Shown: positions 3,772-57,883, counted from the first letter of the stretch. The stretch is 64,000 bases of DNA from a virus (IMGVR_UViG_3300045988_135688); one strand, 5' to 3'. Notes: generated by a model not told the origin, from the letters alone. Numbers and translations are program-made.

Positions 3772-3843
3772 GGTGCTTTGGATGAGTGGTTTAGTCAACG
3801 GTCTGCAAAACCGACAACAGCGGTTCGATTCCGCTAAGCACCT
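3772..3843 (+). tRNA. tRNA-Cys (anticodon GCA)
   Basis: 72-nt cloverleaf: acceptor GGTGCTT/AAGCACC, T arm AGCGG-TTCGATT-CCGCT, anticodon loop CTGCAAA, 13:22 mismatch and U73 discriminator as expected for tRNA-Cys, 4-nt variable loop, no encoded CCA. Confidence 0.85.
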
Positions 3844-3880
3844 CAAGTGATTGGATTTTTTTTGTTCATGATTAATTTCA

Positions 3881-10252: not shown

Positions 10253-10594
10253 ATGGCTGTAGAAGAAAACAAAGTAACACTCGTTGGCGTAAATTCAGCC
10301 AGCGTAACATTCAGCAATGAAGCTAATGTGGGAAAACAATACAAGGTGAACGCGAATGTAAATGTATCAAACGGTAAAACAATTGATTCATTTGATGGCG
10401 GAGAGGTGAAATCGCTTGAATCAGAGAACCAACTCGCCACATTCTATTTCAATCAGAACGGTGGTATAGCAATCAACTACAATGACCACCCTGAACTGGA
10501 TACCCAAATCGCTATCATTACTATCATCAACTCTTTCGTAACCGATGTGACAAAATATATCAATACGAAAGGAATCTCATCAGTTTCAATTTAA
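10253..10594 (+). CDS. Hypothetical protein (113 aa)
   Basis: ORF track; own promoter box. First gene of a plus-strand insert inside the minus-strand tail operon. No recognisable motif. Confidence 0.6.
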   Translation: MAVEENKVTLVGVNSASVTFSNEANVGKQYKVNANVNVSNGKTIDSFDGGEVKSLESENQLATFYFNQNGGIAINYNDHPELDTQIAIITIINSFVTDVTKYINTKGISSVSI

Positions 10595-10608
10595 AACAGC
10601 AATAAAAA

Positions 10609-11145
10609 ATGACAAACCAAGAAATGTTTTTAAAGAGATTAACTCTCTTGAATATTCCTCTATCGCTAGAAGGAAAGGAACTTCCATCAGATTTGAAAGC
10701 AAAGATTATGCTTATGCGTGTATCTTACGACAAAGCTGCAAAAGCATTCGATGATGATATGCAACAGGTTCTTAAAGAAATAAAGAAGGAAGGATATGAC
10801 GAGCGCGCACAGAAAATCAATCGCATGAAAGAGATTGACGGTAAGGAAGATGCAACAAAAGAGGAAAAGAAAGAAGCGGATGAAATCAGAAAGACAGAAG
10901 AAGATTTCAACAAGGAAACAGAAGAACTGAACAAGGCATACTCCGAAGCATACCAAGAGAAAATGAAAGAGGAATGTGATATGAAGCCTAGATACTTCGC
11001 CTTTGAAGGATTCACTAAAATAATTGAACTCATTGGTACTGACGGTGCAATCAAGGTGAAATGGAACTCTCCCGAAGCATTGGAAATACCAAAGGAGGAA
11101 TTCATCTCGCTTATCGCAACAAACTTGGTAGATAACCTCGAATAA
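10609..11145 (+). CDS. Hypothetical Lys/Glu-rich coiled-coil protein (178 aa)
   Basis: ORF track; 14 nt after the previous ORF. Antisense ORFs in the same span look like low-complexity shadows. Confidence 0.6.
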   Translation: MTNQEMFLKRLTLLNIPLSLEGKELPSDLKAKIMLMRVSYDKAAKAFDDDMQQVLKEIKKEGYDERAQKINRMKEIDGKEDATKEEKKEADEIRKTEEDFNKETEELNKAYSEAYQEKMKEECDMKPRYFAFEGFTKIIELIGTDGAIKVKWNSPEALEIPKEEFISLIATNLVDNLE

Positions 11146-11173
11146 TATATAAGATATTAAAGTTTACTGTATA

Positions 11174-11392
11174 TTTTATATATGCTTCATTTGGAGTCAG
11201 GTTATTAGCCTAAGCACTTTGAGTGCTACGTTGGATGAGAATGATATATAGTTACCTACGGATGTTTACCCAAGTCTGTAGCTCTAAGTTAAGTGGTTAA
11301 AAGGAGTAGCGTATTCGGTGAAACGGTGCTGCTTATGAAAACCTCATCCAACATTGGCGATGGGTATTTAACGGGAGTAATCCCGACTTATG
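11174..11392 (+). ncRNA. Orphan IscB-type omega-RNA (HEARO-like) paralogue: ~20-nt candidate guide plus ~200-nt scaffold, no adjacent iscB
   Basis: ORF-free gap. Colinear blocks shared with the iscB leader (32131-32340 minus strand): AGTCAG start, GAGAAT..ATATAGTTACC, GAAAACCTC, CGATGnGnATTTAACGG, AATCC(C)GACTTAT. The 10-bp helix 11230-11239/11343-11352 is kept by compensatory substitutions relative to the iscB copy. GTAA tetraloop hairpin at 11372-11385. Confidence 0.6.
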
Positions 11393-11545
11393 TTGAATAA
11401 ACATTAATTTAAAAGACAATGGAAGCAACAAGAAAGATGTTTCTTATAAGAAATTGAAATATATTTCATATGGGTTGATTGATGTGACGAATAAATGAAT
11501 TTCAGATTTATAATATGATTTAATGTTTTTAACAATAAAACGCAC

Positions 11546-12022
11546 ATGAATAAGCCGTTTTCTATATTGCTATTTTTTTTGTTACTGTCGTGTTCTTGTT
11601 CACGCAAGCTACTTCCATCTTCGACAAATACAACCATAGTAGACCACAACACGACAGTAACGGAAAGAGTAGTATGGCAATCAAAAATAATAACTCTTCC
11701 AACAGAACACATACAACATACAACATTTGAAGATAGTTCACACTTGGAAACATCATTAGCCGTATCAGACGCTAAAATAATGTCGGATGGCAGGCTTTTT
11801 CATAGTTTGAAAAACAAGAAAGACTTTCTACAAGACAGCATCCCATCCTTGGAAAAAGAAACGGTAGTGACGAAAGATTCGATAATAACCGTGGAGAAAA
11901 TTGTAGAAGTAAAGGTAGAAAAGGAATTGTCTAAATGGCAAAAAATACTAATCAATCTTGGATACATAGGTATCGGTTTCATATTGTTTTCAGGTTACAA
12001 AATAGCCCGAAAGTTCGTGTAA
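11546..12022 (+). CDS. Lipoprotein with C-terminal transmembrane anchor (unimolecular-spanin-like topology)
   Basis: N-terminus MNKPFSILLFFLLLSCSC (signal peptide plus lipobox Cys). C-terminal hydrophobic helix ILINLGYIGIGFILFSGY followed by KIARKFV. Confidence 0.6.
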   Translation: MNKPFSILLFFLLLSCSCSRKLLPSSTNTTIVDHNTTVTERVVWQSKIITLPTEHIQHTTFEDSSHLETSLAVSDAKIMSDGRLFHSLKNKKDFLQDSIPSLEKETVVTKDSIITVEKIVEVKVEKELSKWQKILINLGYIGIGFILFSGYKIARKFV

Positions 12023-12056
12023 CTTTCGGGCTTATTTTATTGGGGATTGATAAAAT

Positions 12057-13136
12057 TTATGGAGCGTAATCTTCAACCATATTATAGGTGGTATTTACCC
12101 TTGTGGCTCTTGCTGCAATATAATAATCATAAGAAAAATCTCTACTAACATTAAAGGAATACATAGATGATCTATATGTTCCTTTTGCCGGAACCTGTGC
12201 AGTAAGTCCTGTAAGTAATGAACCAGCATTTTCTCCAGCTTCTGGAACTGTTCTTGTCCTCATTAACACAAGAACTATACCACGTATAGTAACAGATGAC
12301 CCACTATTATTTGTTATAATGAAGTTGTATGTAATTTGGTTATTAGAAGAGTTCCATGTACCAAATGCTTCTATTACGTATAGAGATCCAGCTGCATGAA
12401 TAGTCATTGTTTTTGGTGTTACTGGAATAGGTATGTATATTCCTTGTTTTAATTCATCATCTACTCCTATTTTATTAGATGACAAGAAAAAAGCTACTTT
12501 CCATTTACCTACATAACTACCTATATTTAATAACCTTATAGATACTGAATCAGTAAACATACTTTCAGATGTTACTAAAATGTATCTAGTATTTTGTAAA
12601 AGTCCTACCCCTGCATACATTTCAGAAAATGGAGTTCCTTGATAGCTTAAATAGGATAGCAAAATGTTATCATCAGTATTTGTTGTCTGTTCAAGTTGTA
12701 TTTCTAGATTATTAGATGTGTCCAAATATACATCTGATGGAACGTCATCTCCAAAAGGAACTATAGCATTATGATTATATCCGTTGAAATCCAATATCCG
12801 ATAAGGTGCTGAATCTCCACCAGTAGGAGCATTATATCCCCAGTCTACACCATCAAAAAGGTCTTTTAGAAATCCGCTATTAAGCGTTCCTGGTGACATG
12901 TATCCCACTACACTTAGACCACATAAACCATCATTAGCTTTCCAATAATCAGAACGATAATCTAAGTATGGTTGCCTCACAGGTTTATATTTACTCCATT
13001 TATTTATTTTCCCATGCGTATTTGCACACGCATATCCCAAATCATAACCATCACTAGTAGGACCGATACCTAGAGTAGGATATACATCACTATCCAATCC
13101 GACAGGTGCGGTGATTTTACCGTTAGAGTGACCCAT
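12057..13136 (-). CDS. Cassette A large protein (359 aa); N-terminus paralogous to 29614-30624, C-terminus unrelated; putative receptor-binding / tail accessory protein
   Basis: MGHSNGKITAPVGLDSDVYPTLGIGPTSDGYDLGYAC aligns with MGHSNGKITAPINLGGDVYPTLGIGATSNGYDLGYAC of cassette B. The first 32 nt are identical in both copies. Function inferred from location in the tail operon. Confidence 0.7.
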   Translation of the reverse strand: MGHSNGKITAPVGLDSDVYPTLGIGPTSDGYDLGYACANTHGKINKWSKYKPVRQPYLDYRSDYWKANDGLCGLSVVGYMSPGTLNSGFLKDLFDGVDWGYNAPTGGDSAPYRILDFNGYNHNAIVPFGDDVPSDVYLDTSNNLEIQLEQTTNTDDNILLSYLSYQGTPFSEMYAGVGLLQNTRYILVTSESMFTDSVSIRLLNIGSYVGKWKVAFFLSSNKIGVDDELKQGIYIPIPVTPKTMTIHAAGSLYVIEAFGTWNSSNNQITYNFIITNNSGSSVTIRGIVLVLMRTRTVPEAGENAGSLLTGLTAQVPAKGTYRSSMYSFNVSRDFSYDYYIAARATRVNTTYNMVEDYAP

Positions 13137-13280: not shown

Positions 13281-13356
13281 ATAAAGCCCCTCTGTCGGGC
13301 TAAAGCCCCTCTGTCGGGCTAAAGCCCCTCTGTCGGGCTAAAGCCCCTCTGTGCTC
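13281..13356. repeat. 19-nt tandem repeat x4 (minus strand unit GACAGAGGGGCTTTAGCCC)
   Basis: aaagcccctctgt recurs at 13283, 13302, 13321 and 13340 (period 19). Each junction forms GGGC-TTTA-GCCC. Confidence 0.9.
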
Positions 13357-13402: not shown

Positions 13403-13807
13403 CTAATCTTCATAATTATTATTTTTTAAATATTTTGTAACACTATTCATTACGCATTCTACACACCATCCTAAAAGATATGCAAAATGCTCGTCTTGTC
13501 CATTTTTATAACCCATAGAAATATCGCAATAGTCAAACACATCACAAACATAATGAGTTGATTCGTGAGCTACAGTATTTATTTTTAGACCATCATTTGA
13601 TAGCCAAATAAGTACACCTAAATTATTTGTACTTTTCTCTCTTACATTGATAGTCAAGCCATAACAGCGTTCAATTTCATCTTTAGATATATCTATCGGG
13701 TCATGATTGTGGTTGGTAAATTTTCTATTGATTTTTTTCCATTGGTCATTCCCCACTGCAACATACAGTTTAAGGGGATATATTTTAGGATCATATTTTG
13801 TTATCAT
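13403..13807 (-). CDS. Small putative zinc metallopeptidase (HExxH)
   Basis: 134-aa ORF with VAHESTHYV (HExxH). Its stop overlaps the start of small ORF A. Confidence 0.6.
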   Translation of the reverse strand: MITKYDPKIYPLKLYVAVGNDQWKKINRKFTNHNHDPIDISKDEIERCYGLTINVREKSTNNLGVLIWLSNDGLKINTVAHESTHYVCDVFDYCDISMGYKNGQDEHFAYLLGWCVECVMNSVTKYLKNNNYED

Positions 13808-27236: not shown

Positions 27237-27324
27237 AGTTAAAATGTATTTAGTTTTACAAAGCTACAAAATAAACACGTATATTTGCACACATAATAAA
27301 ACATTTTATAAAGCATATACAAAA

Positions 27325-27765
27325 ATGTATAAATCAAGACAAATAGCAGATTGGATAATACATAAGACACATGGCAATATAACACATTCAAAATTACAAA
27401 AATTGTTATATTATTGCCAAGCGTGGCATTATACAATTTTCAATGAGGTTTTATTTGATGAAAGAATTGAAGCATGGGCGCACGGCCCTGTTGTACCATC
27501 CCAATTCAGCAGATTTAATAACATAGATTTTTTCCAAAACATAAAAGTAAAAGATTGTGAGAACATTAAACTGAAAAGTAAAACAGAACAATTACTGAAT
27601 GAAGTTGTTGGAATATACAATAAATGTACTGATAGACACCTTGAATTATTGGTAAAAAGAGAAGTTCCTTGGAGAGAAACAAGAGGAAATATACCAGAGT
27701 TTAAGAAATGCCAAAAAGAAATAAAATTGGACCTAATGAAACAATATTATATAAATCTAAATTAA
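27325..27765 (+). CDS. Panacea/DUF4065 (SocA/GepA-like) domain protein 1
   Basis: HSKLQKLLYYCQAWHYTIFNEVLFDERIEAWAHGPVVP is the characteristic N-terminal Panacea pattern. ORF track 27244; first plausible ATG at 27325. Confidence 0.7.
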   Translation: MYKSRQIADWIIHKTHGNITHSKLQKLLYYCQAWHYTIFNEVLFDERIEAWAHGPVVPSQFSRFNNIDFFQNIKVKDCENIKLKSKTEQLLNEVVGIYNKCTDRHLELLVKREVPWRETRGNIPEFKKCQKEIKLDLMKQYYINLN

Positions 27766-27970: not shown

Positions 27971-28444
27971 TCATTGAATTAAATCTTTCTTATAAAACAA
28001 TCTAGTTGTTTCTTTTGAAATTTCCACATGACACTTATCTGCCTCTCTATAGCCAATTCTAGCTTCTTTCCAAGGTTTTTCGTTGCAAATTGACGCTTCC
28101 AATTCAAACATTGTCCAAGTATATAATTCCTCCAAAATACTAATAACAAAATCCTGTTGGTCTTGCGTCAACTTTTCAAATTCCTTATCTACATCTTTTT
28201 GGGTTTCATTTGAATAGGTCAATTCTTCATACAGCATATATTTATCATTAAGACTACCGTAAACCTTACGACTAATAGGGCCATGTACCCATGCCTCAAA
28301 AGAATCCTCAATTAATTCTTTATCAAAATATGCCAAATGATAAGCATCGCAGTAAAATAATAATTTCTGCAATTTCAAGTGTGACATTGGCCCATAATGT
28401 TTTAAAATATAATCTGATAAAATTATAGAATCTATAGTTCCCAT
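27971..28444 (-). CDS. Panacea/DUF4065 (SocA/GepA-like) domain protein 2
   Basis: HLKLQKLLFYCDAYHLAYFDKELIEDSFEAWVHGPISRKVY. Convergent with protein 1. Confidence 0.75.
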   Translation of the reverse strand: MGTIDSIILSDYILKHYGPMSHLKLQKLLFYCDAYHLAYFDKELIEDSFEAWVHGPISRKVYGSLNDKYMLYEELTYSNETQKDVDKEFEKLTQDQQDFVISILEELYTWTMFELEASICNEKPWKEARIGYREADKCHVEISKETTRLFYKKDLIQ

Positions 28445-28837: not shown

Positions 28838-29624
28838 GATTGCAGACTATTACTTCCAAGCAAAAAGACTTGCAAACGGTATAAAATCGTCAACCAGAGA
28901 GCGTGCGGAGAAGTTCTCTAAAGACCTTCTAGCCATATTCCTTTTAGCAGGGGCTAAATCGTTCAAGTCAATATCAAAACTCCCGGATAGCCAAAAAGAA
29001 AAAGTGCTAGAACTGACCAAAAAGTTCCGTGAGGATATATATAACGACATATACCAATATGTACTGGAAAGCAATAAACTGTCACTAGAACTAAACGATG
29101 ATCTTGGATGGGAGTATATTTCAATGACGGACAACGGCATTAAGGAATACATGGAAAGGACATACGGTGGAGAAACGACAAAGCAGAGAATAAACACAAA
29201 TACAAACAGATTCCGCGCTGTTGTTGAAGTATATCTTGCCAATACATTACTGTCAATAAAAACGAACAATATAGAAAAAATAACGGATGAGGTTCAAAAG
29301 AAGATATGGAACAACATATCATCACCATATAACGTATCATTTATTCCGCCAAGCAAACAGAAACACTATGGGAGAGGATATGCTACAAACGGTATAAGCC
29401 AGTTGTATGTTATAGAACAACAGATGATTCTAGGAATTTTCAATGAAGCAAATTACAACTCATGGAAAAACATTCCAAATTTCAAGGGATGGAGGACAGC
29501 AGTAACGTCTAAAAATCCATGCCAGTTCTGCATTGACGAGCAATACAGAATACACACAGACAGACCTAAGCTGCCGTTCCATGCCCATTGCTTGTGTATA
29601 TTATATCCGGTGTTTAATACATAA
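28812..29624 (+). CDS. Head morphogenesis / minor capsid protein (SPP1 gp7 / Mu F-like)
   Basis: The C-terminal motif NPCQFCIDEQYRIHTDRPKLPFHAHCLCILYP resembles the conserved Cys/His end of the Mu F family. Confidence 0.65.
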   Translation: MINKEEISKIADYYFQAKRLANGIKSSTRERAEKFSKDLLAIFLLAGAKSFKSISKLPDSQKEKVLELTKKFREDIYNDIYQYVLESNKLSLELNDDLGWEYISMTDNGIKEYMERTYGGETTKQRINTNTNRFRAVVEVYLANTLLSIKTNNIEKITDEVQKKIWNNISSPYNVSFIPPSKQKHYGRGYATNGISQLYVIEQQMILGIFNEANYNSWKNIPNFKGWRTAVTSKNPCQFCIDEQYRIHTDRPKLPFHAHCLCILYPVFNT

Positions 29625-30624
29625 TAACTTGATAATCAACATACCATTGAGTAACATTACCATAAGATGGGGGATTACCAGCATCAACCACGTCATTACG
29701 GGTAAATGATTTAGGAATATTTGTGCACGAAGGCATCAATATATTACCTGACCATTGACCTGTATAAGATCCATCTTTCGCTCTCCATCTATATCTAGCG
29801 TATGGTCTGCCGGATGAAGCAACGTAATCACTAGAAGTGTTATTTGTAATGTTTAATCTGCATTTAGAAGAAGTAGACCCATTTGTCAACTGTCCGTAAA
29901 CAGAGAATCCAGAAGCGTTGGCTGTTGTATCTCCAAGTGTAATAGAAAGACTTTGAGTAACCACTATCGGCTTACGAATAAATCCGTCAGATGTAGTAGG
30001 GATTAAGCATAATACATTTCCACTGTAATCACAAAAATAACCCTTAATATAAATATATGTATCCCCCATAGATATGAGATTATTGCGATTAAGGGTAATT
30101 GAAATTTTTCCTGTACTATCAATACTACTTACAACGAAAACTCCAGAATCCACCAACTTCTTTAATTGATTATATACTTCCACCTTTATCTTCATATTAG
30201 ACCAAGTAAATCCCCCAAGTATTTTACCCCAATTATACCTAGAATCAGCCCAATATGGTGAAATTGTAAGTACAAACGTTGTCTTTGTAGCATCTACAGG
30301 ATTAGTTAGGATATCTTTATCTATTGTAAGAGGTTTAGCCCCATGATCGTATCCATCAAAATCAGTAAGCCTATACCATGTTTTAGGTCTATCATATACT
30401 AATTTCTTATTTACAGAATCATAAATTATACCAGGTAAACTAGCGTTGTCAAATGAAGGGCTAGACGCTTCTTTGGGTTTTATATAACTCCACATATTAA
30501 TTTTTTCGCTAAGACAAGCATACCCTAAATCATAGCCATTACTAGTAGCACCAATACCAAGGGTAGGATATACATCACCACCCAAATTAATGGGTGCGGT
30601 GATTTTACCGTTAGAGTGACCCAT
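29614..30624 (-). CDS. Cassette B large protein (336 aa from MGHSNG); paralogue of 12057-13136 at N-terminus only
   Basis: See cassette A. The ORF track starts at GTG 30630; the conserved ATG is at 30624. Confidence 0.7.
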   Translation of the reverse strand: MGHSNGKITAPINLGGDVYPTLGIGATSNGYDLGYACLSEKINMWSYIKPKEASSPSFDNASLPGIIYDSVNKKLVYDRPKTWYRLTDFDGYDHGAKPLTIDKDILTNPVDATKTTFVLTISPYWADSRYNWGKILGGFTWSNMKIKVEVYNQLKKLVDSGVFVVSSIDSTGKISITLNRNNLISMGDTYIYIKGYFCDYSGNVLCLIPTTSDGFIRKPIVVTQSLSITLGDTTANASGFSVYGQLTNGSTSSKCRLNITNNTSSDYVASSGRPYARYRWRAKDGSYTGQWSGNILMPSCTNIPKSFTRNDVVDAGNPPSYGNVTQWYVDYQVIMY

Positions 30625-30889
30625 AATCACCCCCTTCCTCTATAACGGTAAAAGAACCTTTACAAACAACAATGCCATTATAACTGATACTACGACAATG
30701 AATATCGCCATCAATTATAACAGCATCAGAAATGTCATAATCACTAGGAAGTTCCCCACCACATAGTGTTATAACTTCGACTGCCCCTGTGCAGCTAGAC
30801 TGCCCCTGTGCAGCTAGACTGCCCCTGTGCTCCCTCGCTTCGCTTCGGTCGCACACCAAATTTCCATTTACAAACAAATTAATTTTCAT
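30611..30889 (-). CDS. Cassette B small beta-helix-like protein (92 aa), intact, reads through a 19-nt tandem array
   Basis: ORF track. MKINLFVNGNLVCDRSEAREHRG... has the same N-terminus and 41-nt box as cassette A. Its start overlaps the iscB stop (ATGA). Confidence 0.65.
   Translation of the reverse strand: MKINLFVNGNLVCDRSEAREHRGSLAAQGQSSCTGAVEVITLCGGELPSDYDISDAVIIDGDIHCRSISYNGIVVCKGSFTVIEEGGDYGSL
30776..30832. repeat. 19-nt tandem repeat x3 (minus strand unit GCACAGGGGCAGTCTAGCT)
   Basis: gactgcccctgtgc at 30779, 30798 and 30817 (period 19). Forms a GCAG-TCTAG-CTGC hairpin. Confidence 0.9.
30825..30865. other. 41-nt GC-rich box, identical to 13349-13389
   Basis: Direct comparison of the two loci. 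Confidence 0.85.
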
Positions 30890-32130
30890 AAATTTACTTT
30901 CGTTCGCTTTTCAATTAATATACTTTTTCTTGTATCTATCAACCGCAAATGCTTACAATTGATAGAACCTTTGTTTACTTTTGTACCGTCAAGTTTCCGA
31001 ATATCAAAGTAACCACTATTTCTCCTACTAAAAATGTAATACAACTCTTTTTGGTATTCAACCAAGTCAAACAATCTAAATCCTTTCACTAAGAATGGTG
31101 CTTGATTGAGTTTCTTTCTGCCACCTTTCAAGAAATTAGCTTTGTGTATTTGTCTGTTTTGGCATCTTACCTTCTTCTGATAGAAATAATAACCTAAAGG
31201 TTTAGCCACAGGATTATCACTGATACACCTTGCATCAACATAATGCTCTTTAGGAAGATTGTTAGTGATACGGGTATTCTTCGTGATATAGCCAAAAGTC
31301 ATACTTACATTAGGATAGATATTCTTTAGCCTATCATAGAAACTCCATCGCATAATCCCCATAAAGGCAGCATTTCTAAATGACTTTCCACGCTTTACAT
31401 TTAATTCAAACTCACCTCTATGATATGCCTTATGGCAAGTTTCACAAAGGGTAATCAAGTTGTTTGGGCTATCACCTCCAGTCTTTCTGCTCTCTATGTG
31501 ATGCACATTCAAGACTTTATCTTTACTCTTACCCTTACAATGTTGGCAAATATGATTATCTCTAAATAACACATATTCACGCACATTGAAGAAATCAAGC
31601 TGTTCTCCTTGTTGGTATTCACTGCCAGATATACTTGGATTATTAATCTTTTGTATATCAAAAGCAGCCGTTTCAACTACGATATTAGTTATCGGTAGGA
31701 ACTTATGTATCTTCTCAACAATAGTCAAATGAGTTTGGATTTTGTTTTCAATAGATGGTGCTATCCAACCTTTACGCTTGGAAGATACCCTATTATTGAA
31801 ACGAGCCTTGCGATAACGAAGCCTACTCCTACGGGTTCTTCTTAATTCCCTACGAGTAGATAGCTTATCCACAATATCGTTTCTCAATTCCACATCTGCT
31901 GCATACAATTCCTTCTCACTTGTTGTTGCTGAAATGCCGATATGCTTGCTACCAGCATCTACACCCAAACTTACGGGCTGTGTATAATCTGTTGTGTCAT
32001 AATCCAATTGAATTGTGAACGGAATACGGCACACAACATGGGCTAGACTGTTTTTTAACAGCCTTCTCACCTTACCAAACCTTTCGGTTGGCATAAGTGC
32101 TTGTCCTTGTTTGTTAATTACGTAAACCAT
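30886..32130 (-). CDS. iscB: IscB RNA-guided nuclease (PLMP, split RuvC, bridge helix, HNH)
   Basis: VYVINKQGQALMPTERFGKVRRLL (PLMP). LGVDAGSKHIGISA (RuvC-I). Arg-rich RRELRRTRRSRLRYRKARFNNR. IVVETAAFD (RuvC-II). HNH CQHCKG...HHIESRKTGGDSPNNLITLCETCH. EHYVDARC (RuvC-III). Confidence 0.9.
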   Translation of the reverse strand: MVYVINKQGQALMPTERFGKVRRLLKNSLAHVVCRIPFTIQLDYDTTDYTQPVSLGVDAGSKHIGISATTSEKELYAADVELRNDIVDKLSTRRELRRTRRSRLRYRKARFNNRVSSKRKGWIAPSIENKIQTHLTIVEKIHKFLPITNIVVETAAFDIQKINNPSISGSEYQQGEQLDFFNVREYVLFRDNHICQHCKGKSKDKVLNVHHIESRKTGGDSPNNLITLCETCHKAYHRGEFELNVKRGKSFRNAAFMGIMRWSFYDRLKNIYPNVSMTFGYITKNTRITNNLPKEHYVDARCISDNPVAKPLGYYFYQKKVRCQNRQIHKANFLKGGRKKLNQAPFLVKGFRLFDLVEYQKELYYIFSRRNSGYFDIRKLDGTKVNKGSINCKHLRLIDTRKSILIEKRTKVNL

Positions 32131-32340
32131 TTTTACTATAAGTCGGATTTATCCGTTAAATGCTCATCGACAATGTTATAGAGAGGTTTTCCGTCAGTAA
32201 CACTATTCCTACCCCACAGAATTGTTTAATCACTGACCTTAGAGCAAGGGGCTTGAGCAAACACCCACTTGGTAACTATATATTCTCTCCTAACGCTTAG
32301 TCTAATCAACTTGGGCTTTTAGCCTAATGGGTAACTGACT
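30886..32340 (-). mobile_element. IscB-type OMEGA element (iscB plus omega-RNA scaffold, no tnpA)
   Basis: Span of the iscB ORF plus the scaffold homologous to 11195-11392. Ends are not defined. Confidence 0.55.
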
Positions 32341-32360
32341 TATGCTATAACCACTCCTAC
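32131..32360 (-). ncRNA. IscB omega-RNA (HEARO-like): ~210-nt scaffold plus ~20-nt candidate guide at 32341-32360
   Basis: 340-nt ORF-free leader directly upstream of iscB, where omega-RNAs are known to be encoded. Homologous to 11195-11392 with a covarying helix (32285-32294 / 32175-32185). Confidence 0.7.
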
Positions 32361-32449
32361 TAGTTTTTCTATGAAAATAATTTAAAATCCAAGCAACAGT
32401 CTATAAGACAAATGTTGTTTTAAAATCTTCGATGGTAGCAAAATTACCA

Positions 32450-56987: not shown

Positions 56988-57737
56988 ATGCGACAGTTTA
57001 ATGAAGAAAACTTAAATGACACAGGTGTTGTTTTAAGTACGGCAAATCCCTCCGAAATGGGTAAGATATTTTCTTATAATGGAATAAATGTTAGGATGCG
57101 TAAGATGAATGGATATATCCTTGTATGTCTTACAGATTTTGCTAGGTTATTTCCTGATAAAAATCTATCCACTATTATAAATTCTAAGGAAATGACTGAT
57201 TATGTAAATCGTTTGAGCGAAATAAAAAATTTTATTTCGACTGATTTACTGCAAATTATAAAGGGAGGAAATGTATCACAGCAAGGAACATGGGCACATC
57301 AAAAAATAGCTCTTAGGGTTGCTCAAAAATTATCCACTGATTTTGCTATTTGGGTAGATGACAAGATCGAAGAGTTTCTTACCACGGGAAATACTTCTAT
57401 ATCATCAAGACTTCCAAACTTCAACAATCCTGCCGAAGCTGCTAGGGCTTGGGCTGATGAGTATGAAAGGAATCAAGCATTAACCTTAGAAAACAAGGAA
57501 GCAAAGCTACAACTAGAACTAAAGACGGAACAACTAGATGAATCCAAGGAATGGTATAGTATCAAAAGATGGTCAAAGGAAAACGGTGTAAACTGGAGAA
57601 AGGTTAGCTGGAGAAAGATGAAAGTAATATCTTACGAGCTAGGTTACGAAGTGAAAAAGATTTTTGATGCTAACTATGGACAGGTTAATATATACAATGT
57701 GAATGTATTTAAGGCATACTTTAACAAATGTGAATAA
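56988..57737 (+). CDS. KilA-N domain protein with C-terminal coiled-coil extension
   Basis: GTWAHQKIALRVAQKLSTDFAIWVDDKIEEFL is the KilA-N core. Confidence 0.75.
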   Translation: MRQFNEENLNDTGVVLSTANPSEMGKIFSYNGINVRMRKMNGYILVCLTDFARLFPDKNLSTIINSKEMTDYVNRLSEIKNFISTDLLQIIKGGNVSQQGTWAHQKIALRVAQKLSTDFAIWVDDKIEEFLTTGNTSISSRLPNFNNPAEAARAWADEYERNQALTLENKEAKLQLELKTEQLDESKEWYSIKRWSKENGVNWRKVSWRKMKVISYELGYEVKKIFDANYGQVNIYNVNVFKAYFNKCE

Positions 57738-57883
57738 ATAATATGTATTTTAAAATGTTTGATAGTATGTCATTTTATTGACTATATTTGCATCATGTTT
57801 GAGTGTAGAAGCAAGCATATCTATAATGAAAGTTTAGGGGGAAAGCGTTCCCCCGATTTTATTAACCATTAAAACAAAAGACC

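What the first reader, a model, noticed from the sequence alone, without database searches (positions are those of the whole stretch)
11174..11392. Second, unlinked IscB-type omega-RNA scaffold with a different 5' guide segment, 20 kb from the only iscB gene
The 400-nt ORF-free gap between 11145 and 11546 aligns block by block with the minus-strand leader of iscB (32131-32340). Both start with AGTCAG. Both then carry GAGAAT(GA)ATATAGTTACC, GAAAACCTC, CGATG(A/G)G(C/T)ATTTAACGG and AATCC(C)GACTTAT, in the same order, over about 200 nt. A long-range 10-bp helix is preserved by compensatory changes: here GTTGGATGAG (11230-11239) pairs with CTCATCCAAC (11343-11352), while at iscB GTTAGGAGAG pairs with CTCTC-TATAAC, with at least three positions changed on both strands. 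The terminal hairpin is also kept (CGGGA-GTAA-TCCCG here, CGGA-TAAA-TCCG there). The ~20 nt immediately 5' of the scaffold are unrelated: ...TATATGCTTCATTTGG here versus ...GGAGTGGTTATAGCATA at iscB. Established knowledge: IscB is programmed by an omega-RNA whose 5' end is the guide. Inference: one phage-borne nuclease could be loaded with two guides from separate loci. That would be a minimal multi-guide OMEGA arrangement, possibly used against competing phages or host DNA rather than only for transposon homing. Both omega-RNA copies lie next to one of the two paralogous cassettes (A and B).
Basis: partly seen in the sequence, partly recalled or inferred. Interest (0 to 1): 0.9.

Follow-up and report, generated by a model that had tools for sequence, protein, structure and literature searches.

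The report
Nuclease-less IscB guide-RNA element in a phage

Summary
Confirmed: 11132-11372(+) passes the Rfam HEARO/IscB omega-RNA gathering score (85.8 bits against 83). So does the leader of the only iscB gene (32339-32155(-), 92.1 bits). The helices are kept by compensatory changes.

Corrected: the RNA starts at 11132, not at about 11195. Its partner is ATAACCT at 11132-11138. The predicted guide is GCAACAAACTTGGTAG (11116-11131), the last codons of the upstream gene.

About 80 near-identical phage relatives show that 11132-11545 is a 414-nt insertion. About a third carry it and the rest lack it. It sits exactly 5' of an ATGA start codon. Full omega-RNA+iscB elements of this phage family follow the same N|ATGA rule at 12 or more other sites. 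Guide plus ATGA therefore exists only in phages that lack the insertion.

Best reading: an iscB-less, non-autonomous OMEGA element. It probably borrows IscB in trans to cut empty alleles and be copied in (homing). Standalone omega RNAs, the N|ATGA target and PATE-like elements are all published, so this is a new member of a known kind. Interest is moderate.

The parts
11116..11131 (+). Predicted guide of omega RNA A (GCAACAAACTTGGTAG). It forms the last codons of ORF 10609-11145.
   Evidence: It lies immediately 5' of the element boundary defined by empty alleles and by the unrelated flank in L002. Carriers show four variants, each matched perfectly by empty alleles followed by ATGA. The 16-nt guide length is assumed from known IscB systems and was not measured here.
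11132..11391 (+). Omega-RNA (HEARO) scaffold A, 260 nt, including the terminal hairpin at 11372-11385 and ACTTAT.
   Evidence: Rfam RF02033 scores 85.8 bits against a gathering score of 83. Covariation supports the fold. The minimum-free-energy fold has z -3.1 and recovers P1. Homology to the L002-type copy starts at ATAACCTC and ends at GACTTAT.
11132..11138 (+). P1 stem, 5' strand (ATAACCT).
   Evidence: It pairs with 11199-11205 in the covariance-model alignment and in RNAfold. It is conserved in L002. Relative to B-type ATCAAC/GTTGAT it carries two compensatory changes, by my reading.
11139..11198 (+). AT-rich insertion in the P1 loop.
   Evidence: It is absent from B-type scaffolds and only loosely conserved in L002.
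11199..11205 (+). P1 stem, 3' strand (AGGTTAT), followed by the TAG linker and the pseudoknot strand GCCTA (11208-11212, which pairs with 11353-11357).
   Evidence: The pseudoknot pair at columns 81/237 covaries: AU 12, CG 2, UA 2.
11392..11545 (+). 154-nt tail of the insertion. Its origin and role are unknown.
   Evidence: It is present only in carriers of element A. It shows no significant similarity to iscB or to anything else in the window.
11546..11549 (+). ATGA: the target-adjacent motif and the start codon of the lipoprotein-like ORF 11546-12022.
   Evidence: The empty allele reads ...CTTGGTAG|ATGAATAAG. iscB elements follow the same N|ATGA rule. The rule is published for ISC transposons (PMC4810608).
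32340..32355 (-). Predicted guide of omega RNA B (AGTGGTTATAGCATAA).
   Evidence: It lies immediately 5' of P1 (GTCAGTTA). It matches, with 1-2 mismatches, a terminator palindrome followed by ATGA in relatives.
32138..32339 (-). Omega-RNA scaffold B, the cis partner of iscB.
   Evidence: Rfam scores 92.1 bits. It is 92.7% identical to the orphan copy in Parabacteroides phage PF672P2.
30886..32130 (-). iscB, 414 aa, the only copy in the window.
   Evidence: Pfam RRXRR 2.4e-63 and HNH 2.2e-10. It matches OgeuIscB chains at E 5e-51. tblastn against the window finds a single hit.
30886..30889 (-). ATGA: the target-adjacent motif of element B. It supplies the iscB stop codon (TTA-TGA) and the start codon of the 92-aa leader ORF of cassette B.
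13412..13431 (-). Vacant 'site 2' (..AATAATAATT|ATGA), in front of the leader ORF of cassette A. In relatives it holds a 1466-nt omega-RNA+iscB element.

Best explanation
Window 11132-11545 is a 414-nt non-autonomous OMEGA/ISC element. It consists of an IscB omega-RNA scaffold (11132-11391) and a 154-nt tail, and it has no iscB. It is inserted exactly 5' of the ATGA start codon of the next gene. It lies inside a + strand transcription unit, so read-through would give an RNA whose 5' part is the upstream flank (guide about 11116-11131, GCAACAAACTTGGTAG).

Inferred mechanism: the IscB made from 30886-32130, or from a co-infecting phage, binds this RNA in trans. It then cuts DNA that carries guide + ATGA. 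That combination exists only in related phages that lack the insertion. Repair from the carrier genome copies the element in. This is homing, and it also damages competitor genomes.

Shown: family membership, fold, exact boundaries, the N|ATGA rule, presence/absence polymorphism, near-zero diversity on diverse flanks, and cognate empty targets.

Inferred, not shown: transcription and 5' end, binding by this IscB, cleavage, and homing.
For: Family and fold:
- Passes the Rfam gathering score.
- Fifteen pairs change on both sides, against 3.3 in shuffles.
- The unpaired motifs (ATATATAGTTACC, GCTCTAAG, TTAAA, AACATTG.CGATG) are identical to those of the iscB-linked scaffolds.

Boundaries:
- The empty allele reads ..GGTAG|ATGAATAAG. 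Its stop/start overlap is restored.
- An independent copy in other phages shares only ATAACCTC...GACTTAT, with unrelated flanks.

Same insertion rule as the autonomous elements:
- There are 12 or more distinct iscB insertion sites.
- Each has the form [variable flank]|[G/A]T[C/T]AAC..iscB..AAATTT|ATGA.
- Empty sites were recovered for several of them.

Population data:
- The element is 99.86% identical across 20 carriers, while the adjacent 100-300 nt are 96.5-97% identical.
- Some carriers' flanks are 100% identical to empty alleles.
- Carriers show four guide variants. Each has matching empty targets in the population: 27, 15, 12 and 3.

Nuclease and co-occurrence:
- IscB looks catalytically intact.
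- All four carrier contigs longer than 90 kb also hold iscB.

Literature:
- Standalone omega RNAs work in trans (PMC10691335).
- The N|ATGA target is published (PMC4810608).
- Omega-RNA-bearing PATEs are published (PMC10055086).
Against: - There is no expression, binding or cleavage evidence.
- The score is only 2.8 bits above the gathering threshold. The inner hairpin (about 11285-11325) has several non-pairs against the model.
- P1 carries an unusual 60-nt insertion.
- The 154-nt tail is unexplained and unlike the 3' end of iscB elements.
- Carriers show four guide haplotypes that differ in the TAM-proximal 9 nt. Ordinary recombination must therefore also move the element.
- Orphan scaffolds persist in phages where no iscB was found (PF672P2; L002-type).
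- L167 and L174 have lost the P1 5' strand, so decay does occur.
- The occupied site reads guide + ATAA, and ATAA flanks some iscB copies. Self-cleavage cannot be excluded.
- The co-occurrence lists were truncated.
Confidence: 0.55

Rival explanations
1. Inert relic. An omega-RNA+iscB element once sat here, iscB was lost, and the scaffold is neutral DNA on its way to decay. It is carried along by ordinary phage recombination.
For: - The score is barely above the gathering threshold, with mismatches in one hairpin.
- P1 carries a large insertion.
- Truncated versions exist (L167/L174; a 91-nt B-type fragment in L026).
- Orphans occur in phages where no iscB was found.
- PF672P2 shows that orphans can arise by simple internal deletion of iscB.
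Against: - Helices are kept by compensatory change, and the single-stranded motifs are identical to those of functional-looking copies.
- The element is 99.86% identical on flanks that are 3-4% diverged and interleaved with empty haplotypes. This indicates a recent spread, not an old relic.
- The junction still obeys N|ATGA exactly.
Confidence: 0.25
2. PATE-type element moved by a Y1 (TnpA) transposase supplied in trans. The omega RNA serves, if at all, only for retention after excision (restorative homing), not for spread between phages.
For: - N|ATGA insertion without target duplication is the ISC/IS605 signature (PMC4810608).
- iscB elements occupy 12 or more sites, which needs some retargeting step.
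- Omega-RNA-bearing PATEs are described (PMC10055086).
Against: - The 414-nt element was found at one site only.
- Its 3' end is unlike that of the iscB elements, so one transposase could hardly recognise both.
- No significant subterminal hairpins were found.
- This omega-RNA subtype was not found in bacterial species-representative genomes, apart from the phage itself binned in a Bacteroides MAG.
Confidence: 0.12
3. A dedicated second guide, TATATGCTTCATTTGG (11181-11196), is loaded into the phage's IscB to attack host or competitor DNA.
For: The scaffold is real and unlinked to iscB.
Against: - That segment lies inside the P1 loop, between the two P1 strands.
- It is part of the mobile element itself and is identical in all carriers. 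It is therefore not a flank-derived guide.
- The true boundary is at 11132.
Confidence: 0.03

Closest known systems
Standalone (effector-less) omega RNAs of OMEGA systems (Altae-Tran et al. 2021, as summarised in PMC10691335)
   Same: A mobilised omega-RNA scaffold without an adjacent effector or transposase, in the same genome as an effector-containing locus of the same type, with its own flank-derived guide.
   Different: Here it sits in a phage genome rather than a bacterial one, and it carries a 154-nt tail and a 60-nt P1 insertion. Population data show it to be an insertion polymorphism whose cognate targets are the empty alleles. Trans activity was not tested here.
ISC (IscB) transposons with the N|ATGA target site (Kapitonov, Makarova & Koonin 2016, PMC4810608)
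   Same: A 5' terminus of the GTCA/ATCA type, insertion immediately 5' of ATGA, no target-site duplication, and no transposase gene.
   Different: Element A has no iscB and starts ATAACC. In these phage copies the ATGA is a start codon, and for the iscB copies it also completes the iscB stop codon. No subterminal hairpins were demonstrated.
PATE-like, protein-less IS200/IS605 derivatives that encode omega RNAs (Meers et al. 2023, PMC10055086)
   Same: A short non-coding derivative that keeps the guide-RNA end of the element and would need a nuclease in trans.
   Different: Those are defined by left and right ends shared with TnpA-mobilised elements in one bacterial genome. Here the nuclease-distal end is not shared with the iscB elements, and no TnpA is known.
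Homing of endonuclease-less or free-standing mobile elements in phages (HEG-less introns, T4 Seg/Mob) and 'transposon non-restorative homing' (PMC13565253)
   Same: An insertion that interrupts its own target, presence/absence polymorphism among co-infecting relatives, and near-identical element copies on diverged flanks.
   Different: Recognition would be RNA-guided and re-specified by the flank. Homing itself was not shown here.
CRISPR arrays / omega-RNA arrays (multi-guide loci)
   Same: One effector and more than one guide.
   Different: There is no array, no repeats and no acquisition machinery. The two guides are by-products of two separate insertions.

Membership tests
HEARO / IscB omega RNA (Rfam RF02033) | Covariance-model score at or above the curated gathering score | tested here: met
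   85.8 bits against 83, E 6.7e-16, full model 1-211.
HEARO / IscB omega RNA (Rfam RF02033) | Conserved helices and pseudoknot supported by covariation | tested here: met
   95.8% of cells paired. Fifteen pairs change on both sides, against 3.3 in shuffles. Slid controls give 1-4.
HEARO / IscB omega RNA (Rfam RF02033) | Lies immediately upstream of, and co-oriented with, an iscB ORF | tested here: not met
   The next ORF is a 158-aa lipoprotein-like gene. There is no iscB remnant in the tail. This feature is met for locus B. Orphan copies are accepted members of the RNA family.
HEARO / IscB omega RNA (Rfam RF02033) | 5' guide that programmes IscB cleavage next to a TAM | not testable with these tools
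   The guide position is inferred from the element boundary. There are no RNA ends and no biochemistry.
ISC / IS200-IS605 non-autonomous element (standalone omega RNA, PATE-like) | Precise insertion at a short specific target (N|ATGA) without target-site duplication | tested here: met
   Occupied GGTAG|ATAACC...CGCAC|ATGA against empty GGTAG|ATGA. The same holds for iscB copies. The rule is published in PMC4810608.
ISC / IS200-IS605 non-autonomous element (standalone omega RNA, PATE-like) | Presence/absence polymorphism at orthologous loci | tested here: met
   26 of 80 relatives are occupied and the rest are empty.
ISC / IS200-IS605 non-autonomous element (standalone omega RNA, PATE-like) | Subterminal imperfect hairpins at both ends, shared with a TnpA-mobilised partner | tested here: inconclusive
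   DNA folds of the ends are not better than shuffles (z -0.5 to -1.9). The 3' ends of A and of the iscB elements are unrelated. No tnpA was looked for systematically.
ISC / IS200-IS605 non-autonomous element (standalone omega RNA, PATE-like) | A compatible effector encoded elsewhere in the same genome | tested here: met
   iscB at 30886-32130 has a scaffold of the same subfamily (about 73% identity, identical single-stranded motifs). Functional compatibility was not tested.
Homing genetic element | The nuclease target is the uninterrupted (empty) allele and is destroyed by the insertion | tested here: met
   Guide + ATGA is found in 58 empty alleles, including a perfect match to every guide variant seen in carriers. 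In the window the guide is followed by ATAA.
Homing genetic element | Super-Mendelian transmission that depends on the nuclease | not testable with these tools
   There is only an indirect signature: the element is 99.86% identical on flanks that are 96.5-97% identical and shared with empty alleles.
CRISPR-like multi-guide array | Repeat-spacer organisation | tested here: not met
   No such repeats occur near either locus.

The most novel reading that the evidence does not exclude
Orphan omega-RNA elements may be nuclease-free 'hitch-hiker' gene drives of phage populations. They carry only the guide-RNA half of an OMEGA system and rely on IscB from another element in the same or a co-infecting phage. 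They would convert, or kill, relatives that lack the insertion. This would give standalone omega RNAs, whose role is stated to be unknown (PMC10691335), a defined biological function. It would also make IscB a weapon in phage-phage competition. The cultured Parabacteroides phage PF672P2, which has an orphan and no detected iscB, would be a test system.
Probability: 0.35. Interest if true: 0.65.

Novelty: new member of a known kind. Interest (0 to 1): 0.4.

Why it matters
Standalone omega RNAs are known to work in trans, but their biological role is described as unknown. Here a natural and very abundant gut-phage population shows three things:
- One such element is a clean presence/absence polymorphism.
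- Its copies are nearly identical on diverged backgrounds.
- Its predicted targets are exactly the empty alleles of co-circulating relatives.

That makes the idea that they are non-autonomous homing elements directly testable, by in vitro cleavage and by phage crosses. It also gives a natural TAM (ATGA) and guide set for a compact 414-aa IscB. It is not a new kind of system.

Tried and rejected
- Megablast of both loci against isolate phage genomes. Only a 165-nt hit to PF672P2 was found, so there is no cultured relative of this phage.
- Looking for iscB remnants in the 154-nt tail. tblastn and Smith-Waterman against shuffles gave z 1.2, -0.2 and -0.8. The tail's origin remains unknown.
- Looking for an autonomous parent, that is, an A-type scaffold followed by iscB. 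All 37 viral contigs that hold an A-specific 23-mer are orphans, in three contexts.
- The L167/L174 context at first looked like a second insertion site. It is a rearrangement that removed the P1 5' strand.
- Co-occurrence of element A with iscB. Only '4 of 4 carriers longer than 90 kb have iscB, against at least 7 of 20 empty contigs of 85 kb or more' can be said, and the negatives are unreliable.
- Subterminal hairpins for a Y1 transposase. Nothing was significant.
- Sigma-70 promoter scan. The result was at chance level, and Bacteroidota promoters are not covered by the tool.
- The bacterial genome scan found only the same phage, binned in a Bacteroides MAG.
- Altae-Tran 2021 and Weinberg 2009 are not held in the paper library. 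I cite them through PMC10691335 and PMC13565253.

Full report
**1. What is in the window**

The window is part of an uncultured phage. It has a 2059-aa tape-measure-like ORF, dense small ORFs and one tRNA-Cys. An almost identical 51-kb contig is binned in a Bacteroides MAG.

A scan of the whole window with Rfam at gathering thresholds gives three hits:
- the tRNA;
- HEARO at 32339-32155(-), 92.1 bits;
- HEARO at 11132-11372(+), 85.8 bits, E 6.7e-16, against a gathering score of 83.

The minus-strand copy sits directly 5' of a 414-aa ORF (30886-32130). That ORF has the Pfam RRXRR and HNH domains. It matches the solved OgeuIscB chains at E about 5e-51. The conserved motifs GVDAGSKHIG, VVETAAF, HNH and HYVDARC align with their OgeuIscB counterparts, and I recall from memory that these hold the RuvC and HNH catalytic residues. 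tblastn finds no second iscB or fragment in the window. The core observation, a second unlinked IscB-type omega-RNA scaffold, is therefore real and far beyond chance.

**2. Where the RNA really starts**

It pairs ATAACCT (11132-11138) with AGGTTAT (11199-11205) as stem P1.

Three independent results agree:
- In all iscB-linked copies the 3' strand of P1 is followed directly by TAG + pseudoknot strand (GTTGAT-TAGACTAAG). In locus A, AGGTTAT is followed by TAGCCTAAG. So AGGTTAT is the 3' strand, and the 5' strand must lie upstream.
- RNAfold alone, without the model, closes the same P1 around a roughly 60-nt AT-rich insertion that forms its own hairpins (z -3.1).
- A second copy of this scaffold subtype occurs in unrelated human-gut phage contigs (MT838317.1 = L002, and 13 IMG/VR contigs of 84-155 kb). 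It is homologous from exactly ATAACCTC to GACTTAT, and the flanks on both sides are unrelated.

It is part of the conserved element, not flank.

The other structural claims hold:
- The 10-bp helix is 11230-11239 with 11342-11351.
- The pseudoknot is GCCTA with TTGGC, against GACTA with TTGTC in locus B.
- The terminal hairpin is at 11372-11385.

On an alignment of 16 distinct scaffolds (two A-type and 14 B-type), 95.8% of cells pair. Fifteen of 50 pairs show changes on both sides, against 3.3 in shuffles and 1-4 when the 3' partners are slid. The single-stranded motifs are identical between the A and B types. That is the pattern expected if both bind the same kind of protein.

**3. It is an insertion with exact ends**

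A search with the upstream ORF (10609-11145) returned 80 near-identical relatives from IMG/VR.
- In 26 of them the 260-nt scaffold is present at the same place, at 98-100% identity.
- In the others both the scaffold and the next 154 nt are missing.
- Pairwise comparison with an empty relative (L041) shows collinearity up to 11133 and again from 11546.

At the junction the empty allele reads ...CAACAAACTTGGTAG|ATGAATAAGCC. Here the stop codon of the upstream ORF overlaps the ATG of the lipoprotein-like ORF. The window reads ...CTTGGTAG|ATAACCTC...(414 nt)...AAAACGCAC|ATGAATAAGCC. The element is therefore 11132-11545: a scaffold (11132-11391) plus a 154-nt tail. The tail has no detectable relation to iscB or to anything else held.

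**4. The same rule governs the nuclease-carrying elements**

A search with IscB found 204 matches in viral contigs. The 80 kept include copies at 93-97% amino-acid identity in this phage family.
- Their 5' flanks fall into at least a dozen unrelated classes.
- Every copy has the form [flank]|[G/A]T[C/T]AACTACCC...iscB...AAGTAAATTT|ATGA, with ATAA in two classes.
- Empty alleles were recovered for several classes. In each, the element is absent and the flank is followed directly by ATGA, the start codon of the next gene.
- The last Leu codon and the stop codon of iscB (TTA-TGA) are completed by that ATGA.

N|ATGA insertion without target duplication, and a GTCA-type 5' terminus, are exactly what Kapitonov et al. 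described for ISC transposons (PMC4810608). Element A obeys the rule. It behaves as a member of the same mobile family that lacks the nuclease gene.

The cultured Parabacteroides phage PF672P2 shows how such orphans can arise. Its HEARO scores 130 bits and is 92.7% identical to scaffold B. It is followed by only 28 nt and then by the ATGA of an annotated CDS, which is a clean internal deletion of iscB. tblastn with the window's IscB gave no hit at E <= 1e-5 in that phage.

**5. What the guide would target**

In IscB systems the guide is the RNA immediately 5' of the scaffold and the TAM lies 3' of the target. This is established knowledge, summarised in PMC10691335 and PMC10055086. For element A the guide is about 11116-11131, GCAACAAACTTGGTAG.
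- In the window this sequence is followed by ATAA, the first bases of the element.
- In phages without the insertion it is followed by ATGA.
- Among 80 relatives plus the MAG copy, carriers show four variants of this 16-18-mer (11, 8, 2 and 1 copies). Each variant has perfectly matching empty alleles (27, 12, 15 and 3 copies).

The element is 99.86% identical across 20 carriers. The adjacent 100-300 nt are only 96.5-97% identical. Several carriers have flanks 100% identical over 300 nt to those of empty phages. A near-invariant insertion scattered over diverged, shared haplotypes indicates recent horizontal spread at one site. This is the signature expected of homing, although ordinary recombination combined with some advantage would give the same picture.

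The locus lies in a + strand gene string (10253-12022) that ends at a strong bidirectional terminator at 12004-12032. Read-through transcription that includes the flank is therefore plausible, but it is unproven.

**6. Relation to iscB and to the cassettes**

Element B (32340 to 30886 on the minus strand) abuts the leader ORF of paralogous cassette B. In at least 16 relatives an equivalent 1466-nt element sits at the homologous ATGA in front of cassette A. That site is vacant in the window (13416|13415). The cassette link is therefore real for the iscB element and reflects a duplicated target.

Element A is merely nearby. It is separated from cassette A by a convergent gene and a terminator.

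The 5' flank of window element B is half of a terminator palindrome. Relatives have this palindrome intact, followed by ATGA on the other strand. The 3' flank of element B belongs to cassette B. So this copy, like L110, L087 and L088, has flanks from two different places, which suggests recombination between iscB copies.

All four carrier contigs longer than 90 kb also have iscB, and so does the window. Among empty contigs of 85 kb or more, at least 7 of 20 do. The locus lists are capped, so this is suggestive only. The L002-type orphans occur on contigs that never appear in the iscB lists, and PF672P2 gave no iscB hit. A resident nuclease is therefore not a precondition for carrying an orphan.

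**7. Comparison with what is known, and verdict**

Each main feature has a published precedent:
- Standalone, evidently mobilised omega RNAs in genomes that also hold effector loci are published. They have been shown to act in trans, and their biological role is called unknown (PMC10691335).
- Meers et al. note PATE-like elements that encode omega RNAs and need a nuclease in trans (PMC10055086).
- A 2026 review proposes 'non-restorative homing' of OMEGA transposons into co-infecting phages or plasmids (PMC13565253).

The present locus is a new member of that known kind. It occurs in a phage and has unusually clean population evidence.

The 'minimal multi-guide system against hosts or competitors' reading is only partly supported. 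Two guides for one nuclease is plausible, but they are by-products of two insertions, and the predicted target is the empty allele of the element's own site. I rate the identification as an iscB-less mobile omega-RNA element at about 0.9, and the functional model of trans use and homing at about 0.55. Interest is moderate (0.4).

Noticed in passing
window 13282-13352 and 30780-30830 (minus-strand leader ORFs of the two paralogous cassettes, 12057-13136 and 29614-30630): Each leader ORF contains its own 19-nt tandem repeat: about 3.7 copies of TAAAGCCCCTCTGTCGGGC in A, and about 2.6 copies of CACAGGGGCAGTCTAGCTG on the minus strand in B. The exact-unit copy number varies from 0 to 6 among 80 relatives. 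A 19-nt period shifts the reading frame, so this looks like a slipped-strand on/off switch for the cassette.
   Followed up: partly
window 30886-30889(-), and all iscB loci L086-L139: The iscB ORF has no stop codon of its own. The element ends ...GTAAATTT, and the target's ATGA completes TTA-TGA. The same ATG is the start codon of the downstream gene, so the insertion is seamless for both genes.
   Followed up: yes
L110, L087, L088 and window 32340-32400 against 30860-30886: Several iscB copies have a 5' flank from one locus and a 3' flank from another. The 5' flank of the window's copy is half of a terminator palindrome that is intact in relatives. iscB copies seem to act as portable homology for deletions and rearrangements.
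   Followed up: partly
window 13416-13431(-), and the empty alleles listed: Empty alleles of the iscB insertion site in front of cassette A differ in the 10 nt next to ATGA (..CAATAAAC..CAATATTT..TAATAATT). The guide of the resident elements matches only the first. This could be escape from cleavage or a scar of repair.
   Followed up: no
L001 3130-3389 (Parabacteroides phage PF672P2, OP172820.1 about 57570-57829): A cultured phage carries a very well-formed orphan omega RNA (130 bits). It is mis-annotated as a 'hypothetical protein' CDS on the other strand. It abuts the ATGA of CDS PF672P2_00078, and tblastn with the window's IscB found no iscB in that genome.
   Followed up: partly
L167 and L174 (IMG/VR contigs ..135682 and ..148932): A variant of element A in which everything 5' of about window 11156 (guide, P1 5' strand) is replaced by sequence from another part of the phage genome. 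The right side is unchanged.
   Followed up: partly
window 27244-27765(+) and 27971-28444(-): Two divergently placed paralogous ORFs (173 and 157 aa) share an N-terminal motif (..KLQKLLYYCQAWH.. and ..KLQKLLFYCDAYH..), as seen in the ORF list. They were not examined.
   Followed up: no
window 3772-3844(+): [quoted passage not shown]
   Followed up: no
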